From the IMG/VR virus record IMGVR_UViG_3300036801_000157, positions 1 to 62,439 of that record: a stretch of DNA of 62,439 nt. The stretch is one strand, 5' to 3'. A model generated the notes under the pieces. That model searched no databases. It was not told where the DNA came from and saw only the letters and a program-made list of their open reading frames with translations. How positions within the stretch are numbered: position 1 is the stretch's first letter; each line of letters opens with the position of its first letter. Below, one piece after another: positions 3,303 through 47,282 of this stretch. The position numbers and the translations under genes are program-made. The stretch is from a virus. Lineage: Duplodnaviria > Caudoviricetes.

Positions 3303-3553
3303 AGTGGATCGCCAAGCTCTACTACATGATGCGCGCCAACGGCCGCAAGATCATTCCGGCGCACCGCAAATACCACGAGCGCATCGCCGTCAATTCGATG
3401 GACAAGGAACAGGCCGAATCCTATGTCACACGCGCGCGTATGCGGTCCAGACTGTTGATGGCGCAGCGGGAGGCCGAGATCGAGGCCGGCGTCGAGCATC
3501 ATTCGCCGGCGATGGCGATGGACGTAGCGCGAGAACGTGTGAACCAGCCATGA
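3299..3553 (+). CDS. Hypothetical protein
   Basis: ATGA-coupled chain. Confidence 0.55.
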   Translation: MKWIAKLYYMMRANGRKIIPAHRKYHERIAVNSMDKEQAESYVTRARMRSRLLMAQREAEIEAGVEHHSPAMAMDVARERVNQP

Positions 3554-3711
3554 GACGAGATCGGAAAGACGACGACCACGACGAGGCTTCACCCGAGCAC
3601 GTGCTGCGCACCGATCATGCCGTTCTCGAACGAACGACCGAAAAATTCTTGCTGCTGTTGCGGCGGGAATGGAGGCGGGCGCAGAAGGAAAAGGAGATCG
3701 CGGCGCAATGA
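3550..3711 (+). CDS. Small hypothetical protein
   Basis: ATGA-coupled chain (MRRDRKDD...). Confidence 0.45.
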   Translation: MRRDRKDDDHDEASPEHVLRTDHAVLERTTEKFLLLLRREWRRAQKEKEIAAQ

Positions 3712-4073
3712 TCGACCTGTGGGCGGATCATGCCAACGTGCGCGCCGTCAACGTGATGATGCTGCTTGCCAAGATGCGGCTTGAAGCTGGGAGATCGCCG
3801 GCGCCCTGGTATCGGGCCGCCGGGCAACACCTCGCGCGCCTGCGCCGCGGGCGGGGCAAGAGCAAATGGGCACAACTTGTGCGCGACGAATGCGGGATCG
3901 GCACCAGTCGCGCTTTCGAACTGATCGCGCTCGGGCGAGGCAAGGCTCTCGCGGAGGCCCGCGCGGAGAATTCCGGTAGAGTTAAAAAGTCACGCAGCTG
4001 CAAAGCGTTACCTGGTCCAAGGGGCCCCAGGAAGACGGCAAATCGCCGCTCTGGCACAGATTCCAAGCATTGA
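3708..4073 (+). CDS. DUF3102-like helical protein
   Basis: AAGQHLARL...KWAQLVRDECGIGTSRAFELIAL pattern. Confidence 0.55.
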   Translation: MIDLWADHANVRAVNVMMLLAKMRLEAGRSPAPWYRAAGQHLARLRRGRGKSKWAQLVRDECGIGTSRAFELIALGRGKALAEARAENSGRVKKSRSCKALPGPRGPRKTANRRSGTDSKH

Positions 4074-4111: not shown

Positions 4112-4621
4112 GTGGCCAACGACGAGGTCCAGCTCGCTTTGATCGCCGAGGCCGCGCCGCTCCGGGTGGCCGCCAAGCCATTCGTCGTCTTCGAGATTGC
4201 CGGCGAGCCGAAGGCCTGGGGCCGGCCGGGCGCAACCATTCGTTGGGCTAGTGGTCGACCGTTCATCCACTGGTATGTATCGGCGCCAGAGGCCGCCTAC
4301 AGGACCGCAGTAGCTTGGTGCGCCAAGAGTGCCATGAAGGGCCGAAAGCCCACCAGCGAGCCCGTGGCGCTGCTGGCGCATGCCTTCGTTGGCATTCCTC
4401 CAAGCTGGCATTGGCTCACCAAGCAAAAAGCGCGTTCTGGCGCGCTGTTGCCGACCGGAAAACCAGACCACGACAATTTTCTGAAACTTCTCTGCGATGC
4501 CTTGCGCGGAATTGTTTGGCTCGATGATGCCGCCGTCGTCGATGGCCGATGCATTAAACGATTCAGCGATCGACCAGCACTTAGATGCGAGGTCAGAGAA
4601 TTCACTTCGTCGCTAAAATGA
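4112..4621 (+). CDS. rusA: RusA family Holliday junction resolvase
   Basis: GEPKAWGRP, KPDHDNFLKLLCDAL, VWLDDAAVV motifs; probable GTG start. Confidence 0.9.
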   Translation: MANDEVQLALIAEAAPLRVAAKPFVVFEIAGEPKAWGRPGATIRWASGRPFIHWYVSAPEAAYRTAVAWCAKSAMKGRKPTSEPVALLAHAFVGIPPSWHWLTKQKARSGALLPTGKPDHDNFLKLLCDALRGIVWLDDAAVVDGRCIKRFSDRPALRCEVREFTSSLK

Positions 4622-4653
4622 AAACGGGCCGCGTTTGGATCGCGACCCGCTTC
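4621..4653 (-). terminator. Hairpin terminator closing array 1 (possibly bidirectional with rusA)
   Basis: GCGGGTCGCG-loop-CGCGGCCCGT followed by TTTT on the minus strand. Confidence 0.6.
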
Positions 4654-4660
4654 ATTCATT

Positions 4661-5806
4661 ACTGCCTTGCGTTGCCCAGCCTTTCCGGACCGGACCACGC
4701 CAAGCCTCACCCGATCACATCTCGCCACAACCGGACAGACCGCGCCTGCCGAACCAAGCCTAGCCACGCCATGTCGCATCCCGCCCCACTACGCCATGTC
4801 GCACCCCGCCACGCCTGCCAAGCCTGATCAAGCCTGTTCGAATCGAGTCGAGACATGCCATATCCCCGCCGCGCCTGCCTTCCATGCCAAATTTAACGCT
4901 GCCGAACGGACCTCGCCATATCGCGCCTGCCTTCCATGCCGCGCCCAATTCGACCCAACCACACCGGAACCTGTCGCACCCGACCATGTTTAGCCGAGCC
5001 GCGCCTGCCTGACCCAGCCTCTGCTCGCCGAACCCGGTCTAGGCTAGTGTTGCCACGCCTGCCATACCGACCGGAACTTATCTTGTCGCGCCCAGCCAAT
5101 CCCCGTCCCGTCTCGCCATGCCTGCCACGCCATGCCTTGCCTCACCCGACCGCACCGGGCCGTACCCTGTCCCACCGAACCATGCCGCACCGAACCATGC
5201 CGCGCCTTGCCGGACCCAACCGCGCCTGCCTCGCCACGCCCCGCCTGACCGTATTCAGCCCAGACGAACCTTACCCGACCCGACCACGCGCGCCGCGCCT
5301 GCCTCGCCCTACCTTGCCTCGTTACACCCAACCTTGCCAAACCCAATCCCACCTCGCCATTCCTGCCACGCTTGCCGGGCCTATCCTCGACCGACCTAGC
5401 CTTGTATCGCCAAGCTATATCAAGCCCCGCCTGCCAGACCTCGCCATGCCACGCCGGACCTTGTCTTACCTAGTTCCACCCCACCTCGCCTCGCCACGAT
5501 GCGACGCGCCATACCGCTCCTGCCATGCATGTCCATGCCTCGCCTCACGGCGCCCAGCCGGACCTCACCTCATCGGGACTTGCCCCGCCTGCCTTCCTTG
5601 CCTTGCCATGCCTTATTGCACCCGGCCCAGACACGCCCCATCTCGACTTACCGATCCTGCCATGCCCAGCCCAGCCTCACCTTTCCAGACCATGCCGTGC
5701 CACGCCCCACCTTGACTATCCGTGCAAGACCAAGCCCCGCCTGCCATAGATCACCGCGCCCGCGATTGCGCCGAGCGTTGCGCTGCCAATCCGCACCGTG
5801 CCTGCC
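4661..5806 (-). ncRNA. Array 1: about 15-16 GGCAGG-delimited units of GGY-NN pentamers (putative gapped guide RNAs)
   Basis: On + strand CCTGCC delimiters end at 4750, 4819, 4879, 4931, 5009, 5063, 5126, 5230, 5303, 5367, 5435, 5524, 5593, 5661, 5745, 5806; between them a 5-nt NN-RCC period; ORFs across it are low-complexity shadows. Confidence 0.9.
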
Positions 5807-5860
5807 GAGCTTTTTCCGCTTCATAGATGCGGTGGCCCACGCGAGGAGCGCCTCGCGCCG
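5796..5860 (-). promoter_or_regulatory. Conserved structured leader of array 1
   Basis: 51/65 ungapped identity by hand to 7682-7746; CCGC-loop-GCGG hairpin. Confidence 0.75.
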
Positions 5861-5866
5861 CGGAAT

Positions 5867-6352
5867 TTATGCAGCGAGTCGTTGCTCCAAATCGATCAGT
5901 TCTTGAAGCATCCGCTGCAATAAACCAGACAAACCTGGATGTCTCGAATCGAGCATATGCGTAACATCACGCGCGCGTTCGATCGAACTCTTACAACGCA
6001 TAACTTCAGCCAGCACAATGCGTTCAGCCGCGCTGCGATTGATTGATGTGGCTGTGATCGGAACATGGCCGGCTTCGTTGTCGCGACGATCCGGATTTGA
6101 GACGTAATACGGCGAAACTATTCGCATCGATTCGTGAACGACTGTAACTGTTATGAATCGAATTAGTTCACCAGCCCGATCGAGCCGTTGCTTGTGCGCC
6201 GCCTTTCGGTCATCCCAAATAAATTCTGAATGCAATACATGCCGCGCTGGACGAGCAGCGCGGACGATGTCCTCTCGCTTCAGCACGCCGCCGTTCGCCT
6301 CGCGGATTTGCTCCAGCGCGTCGCGGATTTGATCATCTCTGCGCGATGCCAT
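5867..6352 (-). CDS. Accessory protein of the RAMP/array system (161 aa)
   Basis: Overlaps the RAMP stop codon (TAATG); GVL..EDIVRAAR...LHSEFIWDD.KAA...RL..A.ELIR motif; lies between RAMP gene and array 1. Confidence 0.8.
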   Translation of the reverse strand: MASRRDDQIRDALEQIREANGGVLKREDIVRAARPARHVLHSEFIWDDRKAAHKQRLDRAGELIRFITVTVVHESMRIVSPYYVSNPDRRDNEAGHVPITATSINRSAAERIVLAEVMRCKSSIERARDVTHMLDSRHPGLSGLLQRMLQELIDLEQRLAA

Positions 6353-7242
6353 TATTCAATCCCCACATATTCTGCCTCGCCCTTGCCATCAAGCTTTTCA
6401 AGAATCACTGGGCCTTTCGGCATCGGCCGACGCTTGCCTTTGCGGTCCACCAGTTCATGATCCTCGGCATCGATAAGCTGGCCAAGCATCTCGCGCCGCG
6501 CGACTTCTTCGGAAAACCAAGTCAGTAGTTCTTCGGTGTTTTCATCGAAAAATCCAGGTGATTTGAACGCCTTGTCCTGCGCCGTGCGCGCTTGGGTCTT
6601 GACGATGCGCTTGAAATCAGCATTATTGGATTCGACGACATCGTAAGCGCCGAATGGTCCGCCTTTCTGGCCACGCCAATCGCCGATGCCGACGATCTTG
6701 CCGGCGGCGCCAAAGAGATTCACGACGGTTCGCTCTGTCAGGATGCCTCGGATGTAGCGAAAGGTGATCGTGCCGCACCACTCCGGAAAGATCGGCCGTG
6801 TGCGAACGTCCGGCGTGCGATTCTGGTCAGAATTGCGCACCATTGCGCAATAAATTTCTGGCGTGCCATATAGGTTTACCTGCAATTCTACGATCTTGGT
6901 GAGCCGCTCGATTTTGGCTTTTGCCGTTCCTGGAATGTCGAGCGCGACCGCCGACAATGCGCCGTGAAATGCGCCGGACGGAACGTGAATGAGCGTCTTC
7001 TCTTTCAGATCGCGGTTGACATAAAGCGCGCCTCTGAACTCAGCAGGCGGATCGTGCTTGAGGCTCTGTTCCAGCCCAGCCCGGTTCTGCCTGATGCTTG
7101 GGAACAGCAATTCCCGCCAAGCCTTTGCGGCAAATCTATTCATGATCATCGGAGACGTGCCGAGGAAGTTCATCGTCACTTCGTCGATCTTGATCTCCTG
7201 GATTTCGAGCTGCGCCTCTTCTTTTTTCCTCTTCGGTGCCAT
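6352..7242 (-). CDS. RAMP/Cas7-like RNA-binding protein (putative Vipr-type effector)
   Basis: N-terminal LGTSPMI strand; IHVPSGAFHGAL (cf. RAMP IP.SS.KGAL); Gly-rich loop GIGDWRGQKGGPFG; flanked by arrays; no cas genes in the window. Confidence 0.8.
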   Translation of the reverse strand: MAPKRKKEEAQLEIQEIKIDEVTMNFLGTSPMIMNRFAAKAWRELLFPSIRQNRAGLEQSLKHDPPAEFRGALYVNRDLKEKTLIHVPSGAFHGALSAVALDIPGTAKAKIERLTKIVELQVNLYGTPEIYCAMVRNSDQNRTPDVRTRPIFPEWCGTITFRYIRGILTERTVVNLFGAAGKIVGIGDWRGQKGGPFGAYDVVESNNADFKRIVKTQARTAQDKAFKSPGFFDENTEELLTWFSEEVARREMLGQLIDAEDHELVDRKGKRRPMPKGPVILEKLDGKGEAEYVGIE

Positions 7243-7322: not shown

Positions 7323-7370
7323 AAAAAAAAAGGCCCGCAGCCGGCGCAAGGATAAACCGGCTACGAGCCC
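7323..7370 (-). terminator. Rho-independent terminator downstream of array 2
   Basis: GGGCTCGTAGCCGG...CCGGCTGCGGGCC stem followed by T9. Confidence 0.85.
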
Positions 7371-7426
7371 TGTGGGCCAAATCCGCGACGGGATCGTGCG
7401 GCTTGGCGGCACCTAAAGTGTTAATA

Positions 7427-7690
7427 CCTTCCAGGTCGGCCTGACCGCGCCTGTCCTAGCCTCACGCGCCCCGCCGCACCGAGACTTACCCAGCGTGCCT
7501 CGCCTGCCAAGCCATGCCGAACCGGACTGTACCCAGCAACACCTGACCACAACATATCACGCCGTGACGAACCCCGCCTGCCTCGCCGCGCCGAACCGAT
7601 CTGTACCTTGTCCTGACGTGCCCAGACGTGCCCGGACATACCAAGCCTGCCCTACAATTCCGAGCAAATGGACGTGCCGCGCCGTGCCTA
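7427..7690 (-). ncRNA. Array 2: 3 full GGY-NN units plus leader-proximal part
   Basis: Delimiters end at 7432 (CCTTCC), 7508, 7582, 7651; 5-nt period; leader 7682-7746. Confidence 0.85.
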
Positions 7691-7755
7691 CCGACCGTTT
7701 ACCGCTTCATAGCTGCGGGCGGCCGCGCGAGAAACGTCCCGCGCCACAGCGTGTG

Positions 7756-8340
7756 TCATACGCCGGAATTTCTTGAATCGTCAAGCAGCGCATTGACGCG
7801 CTCTGACGCTTGCACAGTATCGTCGAACTGTTCAACCCCCCATTTGCCAGCGCCGATCAGTTTCACAACATAACTGCCGTGCGTAATTTCGATATCTTTT
7901 TCTGGCAGCACCAACCAAACACGATCGTGAATTCTAATATGAACCAACAAAATTTCATCGGCAGATCGCACATGCAAGCCACGCAACGACATCGCCTTTA
8001 ATTGTTGATAATATGGCGCATCTTTCCACACATCAGGATAATCAGGATCAACCGTGCACGTCACACATTGGACTCCATTGAAAACACCAAGACTTAAAAT
8101 CATGTGACTCAATAATGGAAACCATTCATGGCCGACTTTCGGGCTCATCAGCCAGCCACATGCATAGGTGCGACATATCTGCGGACGCGCTTCGTAAATT
8201 CCGCAGCCACCGCAGCCAGGCCGACAGTGCTCGCACCAAACGCCTGCCGGCTTGGATAATTCGGCAACAAATAATAATCGGCAGCATTCGGAACACTTGC
8301 CGCAGGATCGTCCTGGCGCGATTGGCGGGCCACCGTGCAT
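7756..8340 (-). CDS. Cys-cluster protein (YkgJ/CxxCxxCC-like)
   Basis: RSCGKCSECC, WCEHC, CGIYEARPQICRTYAC; start set at TGATG overlap. Confidence 0.75.
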   Translation of the reverse strand: MHGGPPIAPGRSCGKCSECCRLLFVAELSKPAGVWCEHCRPGCGGCGIYEARPQICRTYACGWLMSPKVGHEWFPLLSHMILSLGVFNGVQCVTCTVDPDYPDVWKDAPYYQQLKAMSLRGLHVRSADEILLVHIRIHDRVWLVLPEKDIEITHGSYVVKLIGAGKWGVEQFDDTVQASERVNALLDDSRNSGV

Positions 8341-9716
8341 CACGTTGTCCATATTCCAAACCCGACCGGCGCGGGATAAATAAACGGCGTGCCGGATACG
8401 GTGCCGCCGAAATTGCCGACCATCTGATCGTTGATCGCGCCGCTGGCGCCGCCGAAGCAGACCGCAGGCGCCATCGGCGACGACGCCTGGATGACCACAC
8501 CGCCGATGCCAGTGTTCGGATTCTCGGAACCGAGAACAAGCCCGTTCCAATTGCCGCCGTTCTTACGCAGCCACGCTTTGCGCGCGCCGAGATCGATCGC
8601 AAAGCTGATCACATCGCCAGATGTGCACGCGCCGAGCGTCTTGCCGCTATTAGCGCTGTTGGAAAATATATTTCCTGTCGACCTGTAGAGCGCCGTGCAT
8701 TGAATGCCGCCGACCATATTGTTGAAAGAGCCGGTCGACGAAAGTAGTCCTGGACAATCGGATGCGCCATGCGTCACGGCCATCGTGACTTCGAAATAAT
8801 ACTTGCCTGCCGTTTTCTGCGTTGTGCTGATAGCACCGCCATTGGCGACTGTGCTGGTGCGGGTCACCGATAATTTGCTGGCCGACAGCGAGACCGCAGC
8901 CGCCGTGCCGTCGAATGATGCTGGCTGACCACTGACGACGACTGGTATGTAAAATGCTTCCTGGTCGAACATGACATCGATATCGATTATTTGATTGCCG
9001 CCGAACAACGACAGAAGATAGATGGCGTCAGTGTCTGTTGCTAAGCCGGCGAACAATGTCGCGATAACATCGCTTCGTGCAGCATAGATCGCGTCGCTAT
9101 CAGTCACCAACGAGACGCCGAGCACTGTCGCGCTCGTGCGCGCTGGTGGATAAAACACATCCAGATCATTGACGAAAGGCGCAAACAGGAAATTTCGAAA
9201 CACGATCGGCGCGAACACCGAGTCCGATTCCGTGTGCCGGCCTGGCAGCACAGTCAATGGCGTGCTCAATTCCGGCGCAAACACCATTTCGAAATCTCCG
9301 AACAGGCTTGGTCGCACCGATCCAGGGAGCCCGACGACCGCCGAGAATATCGCGTCATCACTATTATATATGTTTGGCCATACGCTGCCAGGTGCCACCA
9401 CTGGCGCGATGGAAGGCAACGACAGAACGTCACCGTCGAAATAGATCATCGGCGTGACGACCTGATCGCCTTTCAGGATTGGCGCAAACACGAAATCGTC
9501 GGTGATCAGGAATCCAATATTCATAGCTTGTGGAATTATGGCGGCAAAAATAGAATCTAATTCGGATACAAATGGCGACGACAACAATTGAGTGACGGCA
9601 TAATCGAACGCAATGAACGGACCCATAATACCGTCGGCGTCATCGTAATAACGCGTTGGACCAATCACACCGCGAGGCGTGAGCGTTCCGATCTGCGCAA
9701 TGATGCCTGAGATCAT
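8340..9716 (-). CDS. Virion protein with D.D..Y.P repeats and C-terminal SPRY/ConA-like domain
   Basis: GKYYFEV, GDVISFAIDL...KAWLRKNG, NFG...F.YPAP.GF. Confidence 0.7.
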   Translation of the reverse strand: MISGIIAQIGTLTPRGVIGPTRYYDDADGIMGPFIAFDYAVTQLLSSPFVSELDSIFAAIIPQAMNIGFLITDDFVFAPILKGDQVVTPMIYFDGDVLSLPSIAPVVAPGSVWPNIYNSDDAIFSAVVGLPGSVRPSLFGDFEMVFAPELSTPLTVLPGRHTESDSVFAPIVFRNFLFAPFVNDLDVFYPPARTSATVLGVSLVTDSDAIYAARSDVIATLFAGLATDTDAIYLLSLFGGNQIIDIDVMFDQEAFYIPVVVSGQPASFDGTAAAVSLSASKLSVTRTSTVANGGAISTTQKTAGKYYFEVTMAVTHGASDCPGLLSSTGSFNNMVGGIQCTALYRSTGNIFSNSANSGKTLGACTSGDVISFAIDLGARKAWLRKNGGNWNGLVLGSENPNTGIGGVVIQASSPMAPAVCFGGASGAINDQMVGNFGGTVSGTPFIYPAPVGFGIWTT

Positions 9717-15624: not shown

Positions 15625-15660
15625 CTTGCATTTTCTTCAGAATTATGGCCATATCGGCCG
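15625..15660 (+). promoter_or_regulatory. Putative promoter of array 3
   Basis: CTTGCATT-N14-GGCCA-TATC-GGCCG. Confidence 0.6.
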
Positions 15661-15715
15661 CTTGCTTTCTCGCAATCGGTCCATCGGGCGCTGCGCTTGC
15701 GACACGCTCGATCGA

Positions 15716-15815
15716 CTAGGCATGGCATGGCGAGGCAGGCGTGGTTGGTCTCGGCAGCGTCCGTCTGGGTGCGGTGTACCTAGGCAGAGCGGAGCACGGC
15801 TAGGCTTGGCAGGCA
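15716..15815 (+). ncRNA. Array 3: single-unit GGY-NN mini-array
   Basis: GGCAGG at 15734 and 15808 bracketing 14 pentamers; intergenic, antisense to the tail operon. Confidence 0.8.
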
Positions 15816-15819
15816 AGTA

Positions 15820-15858
15820 AGCCAGGGCCGCAGTGATGCGCCCCTGGCTCTCTTTATT
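15820..15858 (+). terminator. Terminator after array 3
   Basis: AGCCAGGG...CCCTGGCT stem plus CTCTTTATT. Confidence 0.65.
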
Positions 15859-16039
15859 CATTCCGGCGCAATGACTCGGCCTCTTCGAGCTGGCGCAACC
15901 GAGCCAATGCCTCCTCACGCGTTGGGATGTCAGCCAGCACCGGCCGCAGATCGATCAGCCGGCCGCGTTCAAAAATTTTCCAGCTCCTGGTCTTCGTAAC
16001 AAGATCGGTGACCTCGACAGTCTGATACCGGCGTGGCAT
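15854..16039 (-). CDS. Small hypothetical protein
   Basis: GAGGA RBS; follows tape measure. Confidence 0.55.
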   Translation of the reverse strand: MPRRYQTVEVTDLVTKTRSWKIFERGRLIDLRPVLADIPTREEALARLRQLEEAESLRRNE

Positions 16040-40919: not shown

Positions 40920-40920
40920 C

Positions 40921-40955
40921 CTTGCATTAATCTGACAAATAGGCCACTTTGGCCG
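40921..40955 (+). promoter_or_regulatory. Putative promoter of array 4
   Basis: CTTGCATT-N13-GGCCA-CTTT-GGCCG. Confidence 0.6.
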
Positions 40956-41016
40956 TGCGGCGTCGAGCGTTCTCGGCGCGGTCGCCCGGTAGCGTTAAAC
41001 CGGGAATTGATCGAGG

Positions 41017-41366
41017 GGCACGGTTCGGACAGGCGAGAACGAGGCGCGGCCAGACAGCGCTCGATAATCTTTGGCAGGAGCGGCTAGACCGGACGGGGCG
41101 AGGCTGGGCATGGCGCGTTCGGGCAAAGCGCAGCGTGGCAAGGCAGGCGTGGTTGGGTTGGACATGGTGCGGCATGGACTGGCGGGGTCAGGCGGGGCTT
41201 GGCCTGGCAGGCCAGGCACGTCGGGCGCAGCGAGTCTAGTGCAGGCAAGGCACGGCGCGGCGAGGCATGTCGCGGCAGGGATTGGCATGGCAGGCGCGGT
41301 CCGGTGCGGCTGAGCAGGACGTGGCTGGGCGCGGTGCGGATTTGCCCGGCAACGCAAGGCCGGCAG
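41017..41366 (+). ncRNA. Array 4: 4 full GGY-NN units plus leader-proximal part
   Basis: GGCAGG at 41073, 41142, 41206, 41289, final GGCAG 41362; leader 40956-41024 resembles leaders of arrays 1 and 2. Confidence 0.85.
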
Positions 41367-41373
41367 AATGTTT

Positions 41374-41407
41374 GGTGGCGGTCGTCCTTCGGGGCGGCCG
41401 TCATTTT
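41374..41407 (+). terminator. cUUCGg hairpin terminator after array 4
   Basis: GGCGGTCGTCC-TTCG-GGGCGGCCGTC then ATTTT. Confidence 0.75.
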
Positions 41408-43233
41408 CAACGCATCCTGCGCGCACGAATAAATCCAGTCGCGGTCGTAGTCGGCCCTAGCCCCACAAGATAAATCGTGGTGGCGACGTTGACGTTGAAA
41501 CGGCACACACCCGTCGGCATCGACATCGCCGCCTTGCCGAAATTCATCGAGAGATCATTCATGGCGCCGACGCCGGTCGCGAGCTGCGCCGCGGTCGGCA
41601 ACACGGCCGACGCATTGCTGATCGCAACGGCCATTCGCGTCGCGGCTGATGCTGGCGCGACGAAGCTCACCACACCGGAAACATCCCAATCGCCAGGACT
41701 CAGCAGAAGAGAGCCGATATTCGCAGCAATGCCGCTAGTGAGATTGACGGCCGTCGTAACCGAGGTCGAGAGAACCTCCCCAATTTTGCCAGCCGCCGCA
41801 TTGTCGGCCGCAATGGTGCCATTAGCAGCCGCCCGTGACGTATCGGTCGGATGGACATGATCGCCGCGCGACCATGCAGTTGCGACCCCAGTTGCAGCCG
41901 TCCCGTTCATGGTCGGGATGGCGTTCGAGGCGCCCGGCGTCAGCGGCACAAAAATCAAATTGTCGGTGCCTAACGTGGCCGTGTTATTCGGGTTTGCCGA
42001 AACCGCAACCGGACCAGGCGGGCCAGGAATGCCCTGCGCGCCGGATGTACCCTGTGTGCCGGCCACGCCCTGGGTGCCCTGTAGACCAGCTACGCCAGCC
42101 ACGCCGGCCGGCCCCTGTGGTCCCATTGGACCCATCGCGCCAGCGGCACCTTCTGGTCCCTGTAATCCTGCCGGTCCAGCAGCGCCCTGTTGCCCAATGA
42201 CCCGAACACCGAACAACACATTCGGCTTGTTGCCGCTAAGCGGCGTCGTCCCCTGCTTGACGAACGTCACTGCGAAAGAAACATAGGTGGTATTGTCGAC
42301 TGGCGGTCCGTTCAGCGTATAGACGGCATAGCAAGTCGAGTCGTTCGCCGCCTGGACGAAAACCTCGTCCCCTGCATTCGCCAAAAGCAATTGCAAGCGC
42401 TCGTCGACACCGTTCTGGTCAAGCGAGGCCACCCAGATTTGCGTGTTGCTCGGAGCATCCGCCCCATCAGTGCGGATCATTCCGTTGCCAGGCGGCGGCG
42501 TGGCAGCCGAGGCATACGCCCATGGCCACAAGCTGGTCGACGTGCCCGGCGAGCCCTGCGGTCCTTGTGGCCCGATTACGCCGGGATCACCTTGAGGCCC
42601 CGGCATGCCCTGTAGCCCGCTCGTACCGTCCTGGCCGGCGGCACCAGCCGGTCCTTGATCTCCTTGAAGCCCTTGGGGGCCTTCTAATCCCTGTGGCCCC
42701 TCAGCCCCGTCTTGCCCGGCCGGCCCTTGTGGACCTTGAGAGCCCTGGGGCCCGAGGTCGCCTTGCGGACCTGGAACACCCGGCGCGCCGTCAACGCCGG
42801 CAACGCCCGGCGGACCGACGGGCCCAGCCGGCCCTGGATCACCTTGTGGACCGGCCGGCCCAGGTGGCCCGACGCCACCAGCGCTGCCTACCGCGGTCCA
42901 ATCCGCATTCTGGCGCCCGTAAATCGTGCCGTCCGTCGGCGCCTCGGCAATGCCGCCACCGCCATCGGTCGGCACCGTCGGACTGCTGCCATCCTGCGAA
43001 AACACCGCATCCGCGCGCCCGCGCATGAGGACGCCTTCATTGATCAGTGCCTGCTGGAACGAAGCCATGATCGGGTCGTCGAGGTCGACCCAATTGAGCG
43101 CTATCGCTTGATCCCAGCGCCGCATGATGTTGCCGCCGACAAACTGCACGCCGCGCATGCGATGACGGAACAACGAAAATTCAGCGTCGGTGAACCTGCT
43201 CGTCCAATCCGTGAATGTGAGGTATGCTCCCAT
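41407..43233 (-). CDS. Collagen-like fibre protein
   Basis: Two long Gly-X-Y tracts; [19 protein letters not shown]-terminal GDWDV...IRARR.R. Confidence 0.85.
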
Positions 43234-43244
43234 TGTTCTCCAGC

Positions 43245-45587
43245 TCAATCCGCTCCAATCCAGCCAAGATCGAGATCGTAATTGCGAGCGCGATCATCGA
43301 AGCATTTCCATGCAAGACCAAGGGCCATACAGCAATCGTCAAAAAGTCCAGGAGGAGCCGCATAGCGAATACCAAGGCGAGTCCATTCGTATTCCATGGA
43401 TAGCAGCTCGATGCTGATCGGCCCCTCGGGAAACCGCACCTTGCGCTCGTGGATCGCCAACCCGAGCCCTTCCATCAGCCCCTGCTTGGACGCCTGCGTG
43501 AACCTGAAACCTTCGAGCCGCGGACAACTCAGCTCGATCACCTCGGCGCGGTTCGATCCGCTGCGCACCGGCAGCTTGATGGCTTCGACTATCGGATCAC
43601 CGACACCAGTCTCATCCACCAAAGCAGGCGTGTTGCCCACGTATTTCTTGATAATGTCCACTGTGACATGCCAAGGCCGCTGGAAGCGCAACGCTTCGCA
43701 GACGTGGCCATCCTCATCAAGGCCGATGCCGACCGTATAATCCACCTTTCTCGCCAGGTCCCAGCCCCATGCCACCGCGGGCCGCTCGCTCAATGGCGCA
43801 AAACATGCCCTGATATGCTGGGCACCGAACGGATTGCCCTCGTCGTCGCTCGGCTCGGCGAGATAAAGCTCCTTGAAGACATGCTCTGGCAGCATCGCCT
43901 TCGCCGATCTGATCTCCTCATCTGCGAGCACGCCAGCAGCAACCGCATCCCATGCCGTTATCTTGTGGTAACCGAAATTCGGCATGCCTTGCTCGGCCAA
44001 ACGCGCCAATTGGAAAAACCAGTTTTGGCGTCCCTTGACATTTCCGATTATGCGGATCGGACCGCGCGTCGCCGTCAGTGTCGAGCGGATGGCATGAAAT
44101 GCCTCTTCACGACATCTGCTCGCTTCGTCCACTACGCAGGCATAGACATCTTCACCGTAAAGTGAATTACCAGACCAGCAAGGCTTTCCGTTGCGCCTGA
44201 CAAGAATGCATGTATTCGGAACCGAAACACAATGCACCGTACCATCATATGAGCGGCCCTCATAAAATGGACCGGCCTTCGTTGAACTAAGACATCGCGA
44301 TGTCAATTCCGAAAACATAACTCGATAGAGTGGAGCGCGCTGCATAATGTCGCGTCCATCCTTCAATTTGCCGGATGACATCTCCGGATTTGGATGTTTG
44401 ACGCCGATAATCGCGCTATAGCCGCACTTGAGAGCGATTTCCTGAATATCGTCCGCTAGCCGTTTACTAGCTGTCCAGATGACTTCAATATGCCCACGAC
44501 GGATGCAACCATCACCCATGGCGAGCCACACCAGCAATGTGCGCAGCTTATCCGGTGGAAGCTGCTTCACTGCACATGGAATATATTTTTTATATTTGTC
44601 GCCCAACACAACAAGATAAGACCAAAGTTCCTTGTCCCATATTTTTAATCCGGCCGAATATTCTTTCGTCTTGTGCCCTAATCTTGCAAGCACTTCGCCA
44701 AACGCTTCTCGAACTTCGCCCTTCTCGCCACCCTTGATCCCAGCCGTTTGTGCAAAATGAATGCGATAACCGTTGCGCGCCACGAGCGCTGCAGCTTTCT
44801 CAATTGTGCTGGCATTGCCAAGAGCCGAACCTTCAGCCAAATAGAAACCTAAAAATGCGCAAAAATCATGCGTCATGACATCGTTGTCAAAGCCATCCCA
44901 TCGAGAGTGCATTGGAATCGTATCATACGCCTTTAGCTCACTCGCTGGCACCCACATTTCAACTGATCTCGGCTTGGCACGCCTACCTGGACCGAGCCGA
45001 GATGCTCCACGCTTGCGCTGCACAATCTGCCGATGATTTGGTGTCACCAACAAATCGATCTTGTTCGCCCGAATGGCGACCATTTCGCCATTATAAGGCT
45101 GATGAATGATACGCGTTGGTCGTTGCCATTCAGCCACCCCACCAGGTGATCGCGTCATCACATCGTCCGTAGTGAGAACATCTGCAAAATACTTCCACCC
45201 ATCCAGAGTAAGCACCTCTGTCTCACTGTCATAACAGTCAGGCCGATCAGAGCCGCGAAATGCAATCACCGCGCCATTGATCATAGTCAGCGTATGATCG
45301 GTAAGGTGGGTGGTGAAAACCGATCTCCCATCCTGATCGAGAAAATGCTGACGCATCCGATTGAAGGCAATGCGAGCCTGCAATGTGACCGGCGCAACCC
45401 ACCAAAAATTCTGTCCTGGCCCGCCCTTGAGCGCCTGCTCGTACAGCCAAATGATGGCGCTCACCGTCTTGCCAGATTTAGCGCTCGCCTCGATCAGCGA
45501 AATGCGCGCCGGATCGAACATGGCCGCGCGCTGCTTTTCATACAGCGGCGGCCGCTTGTAGATGATCTCGTGCGCCTGCTCGCTCAT
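43245..45587 (-). CDS. terL: Terminase large subunit containing an intein
   Basis: ASAKSGKT Walker A, VVDEA Walker B, GWDLA..VDYT, DETGVG, DDCCMAL. Confidence 0.92.
44166..45236 (-). mobile_element. Intein (357 aa) with LAGLIDADG endonuclease
   Basis: Starts [10 protein letters not shown], block [14 protein letters not shown] and MGDG motifs, ends VHCVSV...RRNGK..WSGN followed by Ser. Confidence 0.9.
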
Positions 45588-46852: not shown

Positions 46853-47095
46853 TCAACGCGCCCGCGATCGAGTGCTCATGCGGGTCAGCTCCCGCTGCTG
46901 CCGCATCACCTCGTTCTGCCGCTCGATCCGCTCGACCGCAAGCCGATCCTGCGCGATGCGCTCCGCAAAACGATCCTGCTGAGCTTTCGCCAAAGCGTCG
47001 CCATTGCTCATCAGCGCCAGCCCGCGCACCCTGTGCCACGCCTCTTTGATCGCCGCACGCCGCTCAGCACACCCGCAAGGCATTGCACAATCCAT
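46853..47095 (-). CDS. Small hypothetical protein
   Basis: MPCGCAERR motif. Confidence 0.45.
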   Translation of the reverse strand: MDCAMPCGCAERRAAIKEAWHRVRGLALMSNGDALAKAQQDRFAERIAQDRLAVERIERQNEVMRQQRELTRMSTRSRAR

Positions 47096-47282
47096 CCAAT
47101 TTGATTAAATTCTTCAAGCCGAACCGCACCCACCCGGTCCGCCGCAAGCCCGTCCCTTCCTGACCTCACTTCTCCGATCTGCCGCACGCCACACCGCCCC
47201 ACACCATCCCATCACTCAGCCCCATATTGCGTAGGCGATGATCATTGCTATCACCACCAGAAACGCCAACAGAAGCCAACTG

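What the first reader, a model, noticed from the sequence alone, without database searches (positions are those of the whole stretch)
5796..5860. Conserved structured leader shared by the arrays
Seen: 5796-5860 and 7682-7746 are 51/65 identical without gaps. Array 4 (40956-41024) has the same layout (CGTTCTCG..CGCGG.CGCCCG...GATCG...GGCACGG) with its stem changed from CCGC/GCGG to CCCGGT/ACCGGG. Array 3 keeps the GATCG...GGCATGG end. Inference: a covarying RNA handle for processing or loading, or an acquisition signal.
Basis: partly seen in the sequence, partly recalled or inferred. Interest (0 to 1): 0.7.

Follow-up and report, generated by a model that had tools for sequence, protein, structure and literature searches.

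The report
Conserved 5' leader of VIPR guide-RNA arrays
The "arrays" are guide-RNA arrays of a phage VIPR system, a CRISPR-like RNA-guided silencing system first described in 2026, and three of them begin with the same roughly 75-base hairpin-bearing leader, which the VIPR papers I read do not mention and whose role is still untested.

Summary
5796-5860 and 7682-7746 are 51/65 identical without gaps; the next best 65-mer in the window scores 33/65. A third copy lies at 40956-41034.

The arrays are VIPR vrRNA arrays of GGY/NN pentamers. They flank a Vipr RAMP gene at 6352-7242(-), whose family profile matches the solved SUSP1 Vipr protein at E=1.2e-41. VIPR is in print in three 2026 bioRxiv preprints.

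The leader is real but so far private to this phage:
- It has 3 copies at 89-96 bits; nothing else in the window exceeds 16 bits.
- I found no copy in 136 other viral loci, 80 metagenome loci or 5 relatives' whole records.

Hairpin 1 (8 bp) pairs in all three copies, with both-sided changes at 4 of 8 pairs. Three paralogues cannot give significant covariation.

Best reading (about 0.5): the leader is the transcribed 5' end of stand-alone promoter-leader-array-terminator units, and it defines, protects or loads the vrRNA precursor. The rivals are a promoter/operator and a duplication relic. An acquisition signal is not supported. No RNA data exist.

The parts
5785..5862 (-). Leader copy 1 (RNA sense on the minus strand). 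It starts 5 nt after the stop codon of the vap-like gene. Hairpin 1 is at 5839-5858 and hairpin 2 at 5816-5832. The last about 20 nt are the first repeats of array 1.
   Evidence: Covariance model hit of 95.6 bits; alignments A1/A2; fold.
7671..7748 (-). Leader copy 2, starting 8 nt after the stop codon of ORF 7756-8550(-). Hairpin 1 is at 7725-7744 and hairpin 2 at 7702-7718.
   Evidence: Covariance model hit of 96.3 bits; 51/65 identity to copy 1; fold.
40956..41034 (+). Leader copy 3 (array 4), divergent from the portal gene start. Hairpin 1 is at 40960-40979. Hairpin 2 is the 6-bp version at 40985-41004.
   Evidence: Covariance model hit of 89.3 bits; fold predicts both hairpins.
15661..15733 (+). 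Degenerate leader-like junction in front of short array 3. Only the last part is kept (GATCG, three bases, GGCATGG at 15710-15725). Hairpin 1 is missing.
   Evidence: Pattern match; sequence; 11.6 bits with the model; alignment A5; fold z-score 0.04.
4655..5800 (-). vrRNA array 1, about 1.1 kb of GGYNN pentamers with some degenerate patches.
   Evidence: In-phase GG detector blocks at 5055-5804 and 4610-4804; unit statistics; sequence.
7400..7686 (-). vrRNA array 2, upstream of vipr.
   Evidence: Detector core at 7420-7554; sequence.
41015..41350 (+). vrRNA array 4, a 'solo' array between the portal gene and the tail-fibre gene, on the opposite strand to both.
   Evidence: Detector block at 41076-41375; sequence. 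It is absent from the close relative L135, whose portal is 91% identical.
15719..15815 (+). vrRNA array 3, a short solo array of about 100 nt.
   Evidence: Sequence. The strict in-phase detector did not list it; the looser GG[CT]-density scan flagged + 15671-15840.
6352..7242 (-). vipr gene, encoding a RAMP / Cas7-like protein of 296 aa with a helical C-terminal extension.
   Evidence: phmmer against PDB chain 36pp_D 'SUSP1 Vipr protein', E=0.031. Family profile A3 against the same chain, E=1.2e-41 over 5-198/202. AlphaFold2 model pLDDT 83.3. All Foldseek rows shown are CRISPR type III/VII effector or gRAMP entries; 42 matches at E<=0.001. phrog_4652.
5867..6352 (-). vap-like accessory gene (161 aa), directly downstream of vipr.
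   Evidence: phrog_15946. I judged by eye that its family is the second commonest neighbour of arrays in other viral loci: 19 of 138 upstream ORFs and 8 of 150 downstream ORFs. It cannot be matched to a named vap from the main text.
4610..4652 (-). Intrinsic-terminator-like hairpin and U run ending array 1.
   Evidence: Fold z-score -3.62; sequence.
7325..7376 (-). Intrinsic-terminator-like hairpin and 9-U run ending array 2.
   Evidence: Scan hit at 7350-7334; fold z-score -3.38.
41373..41408 (+). Intrinsic-terminator-like hairpin and U run ending array 4.
   Evidence: Fold z-score -4.01; sequence.
15819..15860 (+). Terminator-like hairpin and U-rich run ending array 3.
   Evidence: Fold; sequence.
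40922..40954 (+). Shared upstream element of the two solo arrays: TTGCAT, 15-16 nt, then the palindrome GGCC-N5-GGCC. It ends 1-2 nt before leader copy 3 and is a candidate promoter/operator.
   Evidence: Only 2 matches in the window, against 0.04 expected; 0 of 100 shuffles reach 2. Alignment A6.
15626..15659 (+). Second copy of that upstream element, in front of array 3.

Best explanation
The arrays are vrRNA (guide RNA) arrays of a phage VIPR system. The leader is the transcribed 5'-terminal, non-guide segment of three stand-alone vrRNA transcription units.

Each unit reads promoter, about 55-nt leader, GGYNN array (whose first units GGCAC-GGYNC-GG are themselves conserved), then an intrinsic terminator.

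Proposed mechanism:
1. Transcription starts at or a few bases before the first conserved base.
2. An 8-bp G+C-rich hairpin with a CGYU loop forms 3-6 nt from the 5' end, and a second, weaker hairpin follows.
3. An A/U-richer single-stranded linker of about 10-14 nt then runs into the first repeat.
4. The hairpins protect the 5' end and mark where the Vipr filament, which coats the GGYNN tract at one protomer per pentamer, must stop or start.
5. The linker is the likely place where the 5' end of the first guide is cut.

Shown here: the copies, their position, pairing kept through changes in hairpin 1, the terminators, the Vipr homology and the pentamer code. Inferred: transcription, the start site, processing, and any contact with Vipr.
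For: Identity of the system:
- The Vipr profile matches the solved SUSP1 Vipr protein at E=1.2e-41.
- The predicted structure has a Cas7-type fold.
- In the window's arrays, 130 of 187 unit steps are 5 nt. Among the 5-nt units the third base is C 57% and T 29%, and positions 4-5 are near-random.
- The locus order array-vipr-vap-array matches the published layout (discovery preprint, Results read).

Leader:
- There are 3 copies at 89-96 bits, against 16 bits or less elsewhere in the window.
- Conservation starts abruptly: the sequences upstream of the three copies are unrelated.
- Hairpin 1 is 100% paired, with 4 of 8 pairs changed on both sides. Sliding the 3' partners by 1-3 columns drops pairing from 97% to 28-58%. 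A kept structure with changed sequence argues for a folded strand rather than a sequence-specific duplex site.

Strand and transcription:
- All four arrays are G-rich on the strand that carries a terminator-like hairpin plus U run at their 3' end.
- Array 4 is antisense to both neighbours, and only 36 nt separate the portal start from the leader. Its promoter must therefore lie in those 36 nt or in the leader itself.
- Those 36 nt hold an element shared only with array 3.
- By eye, arr2 has TTGACG-18 nt-TATGAC ending about 7 nt before its leader (sequence).

Cassette behaviour: relative L135 (91% identical portal) lacks the whole stretch from leader to terminator.

The model system has a comparable feature: in phage SUSP2 each of the 4 repeat tracts is preceded by a conserved roughly 35-nt element of unrelated sequence.
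Against: - No RNA data: the one listed run that holds this DNA is not on record as RNA.
- The leaders do not fold better than shuffles (z -1.38, -0.73, -0.91).
- There are only three sequences, all paralogues in one genome, so the compensatory pattern is not statistically secure (14 of 500 shuffles reach it).
- Part of the hairpin 1 'covariation' in array 4 can also be read as paired indels.
- Array 3 keeps an array and a terminator but has lost hairpin 1, so the hairpin may be dispensable.
- Most other VIPR arrays sampled have no room for such a leader. The median gap from the upstream stop codon to the first repeat is 12 nt, and it is 30 nt or less in 105 of 141.
- Only 5 of 60 within-locus pairs of 5' flanks exceed the 99th percentile of between-locus pairs, and the top two are this window's own.
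- The published structured cap of vrRNA is at the 3' end.
- The promoter scan found no sigma-70-type site at or upstream of any leader.
Confidence: 0.5

Rival explanations
1. The leader acts as DNA. It would be a shared promoter and/or operator that co-regulates all vrRNA arrays, with the inverted repeat bound by a dimeric regulator. The RNA made from it, if any, would be irrelevant.
For: - Array 4 needs a promoter within about 100 nt of its first repeat.
- Sequence outside the stems is also conserved: 43 invariant columns of 81.
- In SUSP2 the conserved element before each repeat tract reads like TTAAAA-17 nt-TTTAAT, which would put the start at the first repeat (my reading). Conserved 5' flanks of vrRNAs may therefore be promoters.
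Against: - No -35/-10 pair is recognisable inside the leader, and the promoter scan finds none there.
- The region that would be the spacer is a G+C-rich hairpin.
- The half-sites of the inverted repeat differ between copies while their complementarity is kept. That is the opposite of what a sequence-specific operator predicts.
- A separate, better promoter-like element lies upstream of the leader in arrays 3 and 4.
Confidence: 0.2
2. The leader is a relic of cassette duplication. The arrays arose by copying one leader-array unit within this phage. The unique-sequence leader is still alignable only because the repeats diverge faster, and it has no function of its own.
For: - The leader was found nowhere outside this record.
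- Array 4 behaves as a gained or lost cassette.
- Array 3 carries a decayed version.
- Other VIPR loci work without such a leader (discovery preprint).
Against: - The copies differ at 14 of 65 positions (arr1 vs arr2), and arr4 differs more, yet hairpin 1 is fully paired in all three through 4 both-sided changes. Free drift would break it.
- The terminators of arr1, arr2 and arr4 look unrelated in the 3'-flank alignment; arr1 and arr4 share only a 13-nt motif just before theirs. What is kept is therefore the leader specifically, not a whole copied unit.
Confidence: 0.13
3. The leader is a small self-cleaving ribozyme, or the substrate of a dedicated nuclease, that releases the array. It would be analogous to the hammerhead-interspersed vrRNA arrays reported for VIPR types I and V.
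For: - The discovery preprint reports hammerhead ribozymes between vrRNAs (Results, and the legend of fig. S19 seen as a passage).
- The leader has two hairpins and conserved single-stranded stretches.
Against: - No Rfam family matches at gathering score in the whole window.
- In E-value mode on two of the leaders (arr1 and arr4) only noise appeared: 11.6, 12.8 and 6.7 bits, none of them ribozyme families.
- By eye, the hammerhead core motifs are absent.
Confidence: 0.05
4. The leader is a CRISPR-type leader, that is, a signal for acquiring new repeat-spacer units.
For: Only its position at one end of each array.
Against: - No Cas1 match in the record; the positive controls hit in 7 of 14 control genomes.
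- The arrays are 5-nt GGYNN units, not repeat-spacer units.
- No adaptation step appears in the sections and passages of the VIPR preprints that I read.
Confidence: 0.02

Closest known systems
VIPR (Viral Interference Programmable Repeat) systems: Vipr protein plus vrRNA. bioRxiv 10.64898/2026.04.26.720920, where I read Results, Discussion, Methods section 20 and passages.
   Same: - A phage-encoded RAMP protein of the Vipr family.
- Arrays of GGY/NN pentamers flanking vipr, with an adjacent accessory gene.
- Extra 'solo' arrays elsewhere in the genome, as described for SUSP1-family phages and satellites in 10.64898/2026.10.15.759431 (passages only).
   Different: - The window's Vipr is distant from SUSP1 Vipr: a single-sequence search gives E=0.031. 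It also has a C-terminal extension of about 90 aa.
- The arrays are 0.1-1.1 kb long rather than about 100-nt units of 9-16 repeats.
- Each array has a 5' conserved leader and its own terminator.
- I could not assign a VIPR type: the type definitions are in figures and supplements that I could not see.
The 3' tail (pseudoknot) of type II vrRNA in the SUSP1 clade
   Same: A conserved, structured, non-guide segment that caps a hypervariable repeat tract, shared by all vrRNAs of one phage.
   Different: - It lies at the opposite end of the RNA (3', not 5').
- It is about 40 nt long with a pseudoknot that is resolved in cryo-EM and caps the filament (10.64898/2026.04.26.720927, passages only).
- There is no sequence similarity to the leader.
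- In this window the 3' ends are ordinary terminator hairpins. Only arrays 1 and 4 share a 13-nt motif before them.
The conserved roughly 35-nt element upstream of each repeat tract in Escherichia phage SUSP2 (NC_028935.2). This is my own reading of the record.
   Same: A phage-specific conserved element immediately 5' of every vrRNA repeat tract (4 of 4 tracts; 29 invariant columns of 71).
   Different: - Its sequence is A+T-rich and unrelated.
- It abuts the first repeat and looks like a sigma-70 promoter.
- Going by the roughly 100-nt transcript size reported for SUSP1, it is probably not part of the mature RNA.
- I found no mention of it in the passages I searched. The supplements, which I could not see, may cover it.
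CRISPR leader and Cas6-type repeat hairpin
   Same: A conserved element at one end of an array of guide units, with a hairpin that could direct processing by a RAMP protein.
   Different: - The record has no Cas1.
- The hairpin occurs once per array rather than once per unit.
- The leader is G+C-rich rather than A+T-rich.

Membership tests
VIPR system | A Vipr protein, i.e. a minimal RAMP with an RRM core, G-loop and thumb | tested here: met
   Profile A3 (29 sequences, window protein first) against PDB 36pp_D 'SUSP1 Vipr protein': E=1.2e-41 over 5-198/202 of the profile and 1-189/202 of the chain. AF2 model pLDDT 83.3. All Foldseek rows shown are CRISPR type III/VII effector or gRAMP entries (Csm3, Cmr6, Cas7-11 where the title names the subunit); 42 matches at E<=0.001. 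The G-loop columns G181, G185, R190 and G198 are invariant.
VIPR system | vrRNA made of tandem pentamers with conserved GGY alternating with variable NN | tested here: met
   Window arrays: 130 of 187 steps are 5 nt. Position 3 is C 0.57 / T 0.29. Positions 4-5 have each base at 0.18-0.37.
VIPR system | Arrays in the intergenic regions flanking vipr, with an adjacent vap accessory gene | tested here: met
   Gene order on the minus strand is array 2, vipr, 161-aa gene, leader, array 1. In other viral loci the Vipr-like ORF is the commonest neighbour of arrays: 38 of 138 upstream ORFs and 34 of 150 downstream ORFs. Whether the 161-aa gene equals one of vap1-6 could not be checked.
VIPR system | vrRNA is expressed, co-purifies with Vipr and directs DNA binding by the 1-nt-skip rule | not testable with these tools
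   No run on record as RNA holds the locus. I did not attempt target prediction.
Type II (SUSP1-like) VIPR | About 100-nt vrRNAs of 9-16 repeats, each ending in a conserved roughly 40-nt 3' tail with a pseudoknot | tested here: not met
   The arrays are 0.1-1.1 kb long. The 3' flanks of arrays 1, 2, 3 and 4 share only 14 invariant columns of 160, and they end in unrelated terminator hairpins. The conserved element is 5'.
CRISPR leader | Lies next to a repeat-spacer array that is served by a Cas1-Cas2 integrase | tested here: not met
   No Cas1 (PF01867) match in the record. The units are 5-nt GGYNN.
Known RNA families (Rfam 15), including hammerhead and other self-cleaving ribozymes | A covariance-model score at or above the family's gathering threshold | tested here: not met
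   0 matches at gathering score in the window. In E-value mode the best scores on the arr1 and arr4 leaders were 11.6, 12.8 and 6.7 bits, against thresholds of 35-55.
Intrinsic terminator (for hairpin 1) | A G+C-rich hairpin directly followed by a U run | tested here: not met
   Hairpin 1 is followed by G/C-rich sequence in all three copies (alignment), and the terminator scan does not list it.
Sigma-70-type promoter (for the leader itself) | -35 and -10 hexamers 16-18 nt apart | tested here: inconclusive
   The scan finds none in or just upstream of the leaders. The host is unknown and the scan covers only the E. coli-type consensus. By eye there are weak candidates upstream of the leaders (sequence; element).

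The most novel reading that the evidence does not exclude
In this VIPR lineage the structured cap of the guide RNA has moved to the 5' end. The leader hairpins, together with the fixed first repeats (GGCAC-GGYNC-GG), would nucleate or bound the Vipr filament and set the register from which a long precursor is measured out into guides. The published SUSP1 ternary-complex intermediates are anchored near the 3' pseudoknot, with protomers resolving 3'-to-5', so this would be assembly and processing anchored at the other end of the RNA.
Probability: 0.2. Interest if true: 0.6.

Novelty: new variant of a known kind. Interest (0 to 1): 0.4.

Why it matters
VIPR was described only in 2026. The main texts I read characterise one architecture in detail: short vrRNAs capped by a 3' pseudoknot.

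This uncultivated soil phage shows a different layout:
- kilobase-long and solo arrays, each built as its own transcription unit;
- a shared 5' hairpin leader;
- an ordinary terminator at the 3' end.

If the leader is a loading, boundary or processing signal, it would say how long arrays are turned into guides. It would also say whether filament assembly polarity is fixed in the family, and it would give a second, portable 'handle' design for engineered vrRNAs.

If it is only a promoter or a duplication relic, the finding is an annotation detail. Either way, the window is best annotated as a VIPR locus with four vrRNA arrays rather than as unexplained repeats.

Tried and rejected
- **Pattern scan of viral contigs for the leader's 3' half.** It gave 10 loci. 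All were chance matches inside coding-looking DNA with no G-rich array downstream.
- **Pattern scan of metagenome contigs for the leader's 5' half plus GGCACGG.** It gave 84 stretches. I scored the 80 listed with the model; the best was 26.7 bits, with broken stems.
- **Model search of 100 + 36 viral loci and of 5 relatives' whole records.** There were only array-like hits of 20.4 bits or less. These scans need exact pattern matches or loci already fetched, so diverged leaders elsewhere can have been missed.
- **Public sequencing runs.** No RNA holder is listed; the one listed run, a DNA run, may be the source sample. I did not lay reads.
- **Earlier scan notes.** Nothing for this genome or for the array sequence. 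A word search failed on its word limit and I did not repeat it.
- **Literature.** Two keyword searches made before I had the name found nothing relevant. The PDB hit name then led to the VIPR preprints.
- **Ideas held before the VIPR match and dropped:** a TRAP-like ring-protein sponge, G-quadruplex or R-loop origin, RNA polymerase pause array, Chi or primase site clusters, sigma-54 promoter, and an RfaH ops/JUMPstart element (12.8 bits against a threshold of 35).
- **A 'general 3' tail motif' CAAMRCRA.** It was present at only 5 of 166 array 3' ends, so I dropped it.
- **Gordonia phage UmaThurman blastn hit.** It lies inside an annotated hypothetical-protein CDS, and I did not pursue it.
- **Genome contigs array scan.** By eye, most of the 28 tracts that passed my length and G-skew filter are single-unit pentanucleotide microsatellites or other G-rich repeats, not VIPR arrays. 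A few look like real arrays (for example L307, L325 and L343). I made no host inference from this.
- **The G-rich tract at 47070-47259(-).** The detector flagged it, but it looks degenerate, has no leader (9.7 bits), and I did not count it as an array.
Full report
**1. The observation**

Sliding the first 65-mer over every position of both strands of the window gives a mean of 17.2 matches (sd 3.7) and a next-best of 33, so this is far beyond chance. BLAST over the whole record reports the pair at E=9e-13.

A third copy lies at 40956-41034 on the + strand. A covariance model built from the three copies (R1) scores them 96.3, 95.6 and 89.3 bits. With all filters off, the next hit in the window is 16.2 bits, and it merely matches array-like sequence.

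Its start does read GATCG, three bases, GGCATGG (15710-15725). The rest of the leader is not recognisable there (11.6 bits; alignment A5).

**2. What the arrays are**

On the strand that carries the leader at the 5' side, the arrays are G-rich tracts built of 5-nt units:
- 130 of 187 unit steps are exactly 5 nt.
- Among the 5-nt units, position 3 is C (57%) or T (29%).
- Positions 4 and 5 are close to random.

I scored same-strand ORFs next to 173 arrays in these loci and in the window. One protein family is by far the commonest neighbour: 38 of 138 upstream ORFs and 34 of 150 downstream ORFs. The window's ORF 6352-7242(-) belongs to it.

That ORF gave a weak hit to PDB chain 36pp_D, 'SUSP1 Vipr protein' (E=0.031). 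A profile of 29 family members, with the window protein as the first sequence, matches the same chain at E=1.2e-41 over almost its whole length. The AlphaFold2 model (pLDDT 83.3) finds only CRISPR type III/VII effector and gRAMP entries among the structures listed, Csm3, Cmr6 and Cas7-11 where the title names the subunit (42 matches at E<=0.001).

The name led to three 2026 bioRxiv preprints.
- **The discovery paper, 10.64898/2026.04.26.720920.** I read Results, Discussion, Methods section 20 and passages. It defines VIPR systems as a phage-encoded ancestral RAMP (Vipr), an accessory vap gene, and vrRNAs made of alternating GGY/NN pentamers. The NN dinucleotides specify a DNA target with a one-base skip, leading to transcriptional silencing of competing phages and satellites.
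- **The structural paper, 10.64898/2026.04.26.720927** (passages only).
- **The competition paper, 10.64898/2026.10.15.759431** (passages only).

The window therefore holds a VIPR locus. On the minus strand it reads array 2, vipr, a 161-aa vap-like gene, leader, array 1. Two 'solo' arrays (3 and 4) lie in the structural-gene region.

**3. What is known about conserved ends of vrRNA**

In the characterised type II systems the repeat tract is followed by an invariable 3' tail of about 40 nt. [quoted passage not shown] The word 'leader' occurs in none of the three main texts in this sense, and 'promoter' only for expression vectors and reporters. Other array architectures are mentioned (staggered, hammerhead-interspersed, single vrRNA), but their details sit in supplementary figures that I could not open. 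A conserved structured element on the 5' side is thus not described in what I could read.

**4. Anatomy of the leader**

In RNA sense the conserved block is about 75 nt long, and its last 20 nt are already repeats (GGCAC-GGYNC-GG, conserved in all three copies).

- **Hairpin 1.** It is an 8-bp G+C-rich stem with a CGYU loop, at 5839-5858, 7725-7744 and 40960-40979. It is predicted in every copy. On the alignment, 100% of cells pair and 4 of 8 pairs change on both sides. Sliding the 3' partners by 1-3 columns drops pairing from 97% to 28-58%.
It has 4 bp in arrays 1 and 2 and 6 bp in array 4. The MAFFT columns show no both-sided change. Shifting one gap by hand gives one C-G to G-C swap. RNAfold predicts this stem only for array 4.
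- **Statistics.** None of the leaders folds better than shuffles (z -0.7 to -1.4). With three paralogues, 14 of 500 column shuffles reach the observed covariation. 'Structured' is therefore plausible for hairpin 1, weak for hairpin 2, and not statistically established.
- **Known families.** No Rfam family, ribozymes included, matches.

**5. Context of the leader**

Each of the four arrays ends in a terminator-like hairpin plus U run on the G-rich strand (z -3.4 to -4.0 for arrays 1, 2 and 4).

Leaders 1 and 2 begin 5-8 nt after the stop codons of the upstream genes. Leader 4 begins 36 nt from the divergent portal start, so array 4 needs its own promoter there. Those 36 nt carry TTGCAT, 15-16 nt, then a GGCC-N5-GGCC palindrome. 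The element recurs only in front of array 3: 2 matches in the window against 0.04 expected, and 0 of 100 shuffles reach 2.

By eye, arr2 has TTGACG-18 nt-TATGAC ending about 7 nt before its leader (sequence). The promoter scan lists none of these, and the host is unknown. Placing the transcription start at the first conserved base is therefore an inference.

A relative with a 91% identical portal (L135) lacks everything from this upstream element to the array 4 terminator and has other sequence in its place. The unit thus behaves as a cassette.

**6. Distribution**

I found the leader nowhere else:
- 10 chance hits in viral contigs.
- Nothing above 20.4 bits in 136 other viral loci.
- Nothing above 26.7 bits in 80 pre-filtered metagenome loci.
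- Nothing in the whole records of five relatives.

In the other array-bearing loci the median distance from the upstream stop codon to the first repeat is 12 nt, and it is 30 nt or less in 105 of 141. Only 8 of 161 arrays have a terminator-like site within 95 nt downstream.

Within loci holding several arrays, 5 of 60 pairs of 5' flanks exceed the 99th percentile of between-locus pairs, and the top two are this window's. For 3' flanks, 7 of 61 pairs exceed it. This fits the published 3' tails and marks the window's 5' leader as unusual.

Caveats: my array starts require three in-phase GG, same-strand ORFs in G+C-rich DNA can be spurious, and the loci were selected with a GGC-specific pattern.

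**7. A comparison in the model clade**

In Escherichia phage SUSP2 (NC_028935.2), all four repeat tracts around its Vipr gene are preceded by a conserved A+T-rich element of about 35 nt (29 invariant columns of 71). It abuts the first repeat and reads like a sigma-70 promoter. With repeats plus tail adding up to the reported transcript size of about 100 nt, it is probably not in the mature RNA. Phage-specific conserved 5' flanks of vrRNAs may therefore be common, and in that case they may simply be promoters. This keeps the promoter rival alive for the window.

**8. Verdict**

The arrays are already-known VIPR vrRNA arrays. The leader is a real, phage-specific, three-copy 5' element with one well-kept hairpin.

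- **Best reading (confidence 0.5).** It is the transcribed 5' end of stand-alone vrRNA array units, serving 5'-end protection and boundary, processing or loading.
- **Rivals.** DNA-level promoter/operator (0.2), duplication relic (0.13), ribozyme or nuclease site (0.05), acquisition signal (0.02).

I file the locus as a new variant of a known kind. The decisive data are 5'-end mapping and Vipr pull-down RNA-seq of the cloned locus.

Noticed in passing
window 15626-15659 and 40922-40954 (+): The two solo arrays (3 and 4) share an upstream element: TTGCAT, 15-16 nt, then a GGCC-N5-GGCC palindrome. Both copies lie between a divergent structural-gene start and the array. There are only 2 matches in the window against 0.04 expected. 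It is a candidate regulated promoter for solo vrRNAs, or a 5'-UTR element of the divergent genes.
   Followed up: partly
L135:1045-1530 versus window 40920-41425: A relative with a 91% identical portal lacks the array 4 cassette. About 480 nt of other, coding-looking sequence lie between the tail-fibre homologue and the portal start. Array 4 has therefore replaced, or been replaced by, a segment of similar length.
   Followed up: partly
window 4660-4690(-) and 41345-41375(+): Arrays 1 and 4 share a 13-nt motif (GGCAACGCAAGGC) and a similar short A/T-rich stretch just before their terminators. Array 2 does not. This could be a rudimentary 3' tail. A looser form of the motif is rare at other arrays' ends (5 of 166).
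   Followed up: partly
L362 (Escherichia phage SUSP2, NC_028935.2) 2146-2215, 2282-2345, 3546-3612, 3662-3730: Every one of the four vrRNA repeat tracts in this SUSP1-like phage is preceded by a conserved A+T-rich element of about 35 nt that looks like a sigma-70 promoter. It is not mentioned in the passages of the VIPR preprints that I searched.
   Followed up: partly
163 arrays in viral loci L014-L134: GGCAC is enriched as the first unit of arrays: 19/163 against 5.7% of all units (binomial p=0.003). GGCAA is enriched as the last unit: 37/163 against 9.6% (p=5e-7). This hints at preferred boundary repeats across VIPR clades.
   Followed up: partly
window 6352-7242(-), residues about 205-296: The window's Vipr has a helical C-terminal extension of about 90 aa beyond the roughly 200-aa RAMP core (helices 208-263, then disordered). 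Its 42%-identical homologue in L014 (285 aa) has it too, although that locus has no leader.
   Followed up: no
window 47070-47259(-): A G-rich tract with some in-phase GG spacing follows a small ORF near the amidase gene. It is degenerate and has no leader or clear terminator. It may be a decayed array or just skewed sequence.
   Followed up: partly
window 43245-45587(-): The 780-aa ORF matches large-terminase PHROGs only in its C-terminal part. It also has a weak LAGLIDADG hit (E=0.0022, below the cut-off) and a match to a PHROG named thymidylate synthase in residues 115-254. The terminase may be interrupted by an intein or homing endonuclease.
   Followed up: no
This produced a sub-threshold JUMPstart hit (12.8 bits against a threshold of 35). 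The bases are not conserved in leaders 1 and 2, so it is probably coincidence.
   Followed up: yes
Genome-contig loci L242-L361: The nine-unit GGCNN pattern mostly picks up single-unit pentanucleotide microsatellites, such as (GGCTT)n and (GGCAA)n, in Actinomycetota, Burkholderiales and others. Only a few hits are true mixed-unit arrays (for example L307, L325, L343). L343 follows a Vipr-like gene end.
   Followed up: partly
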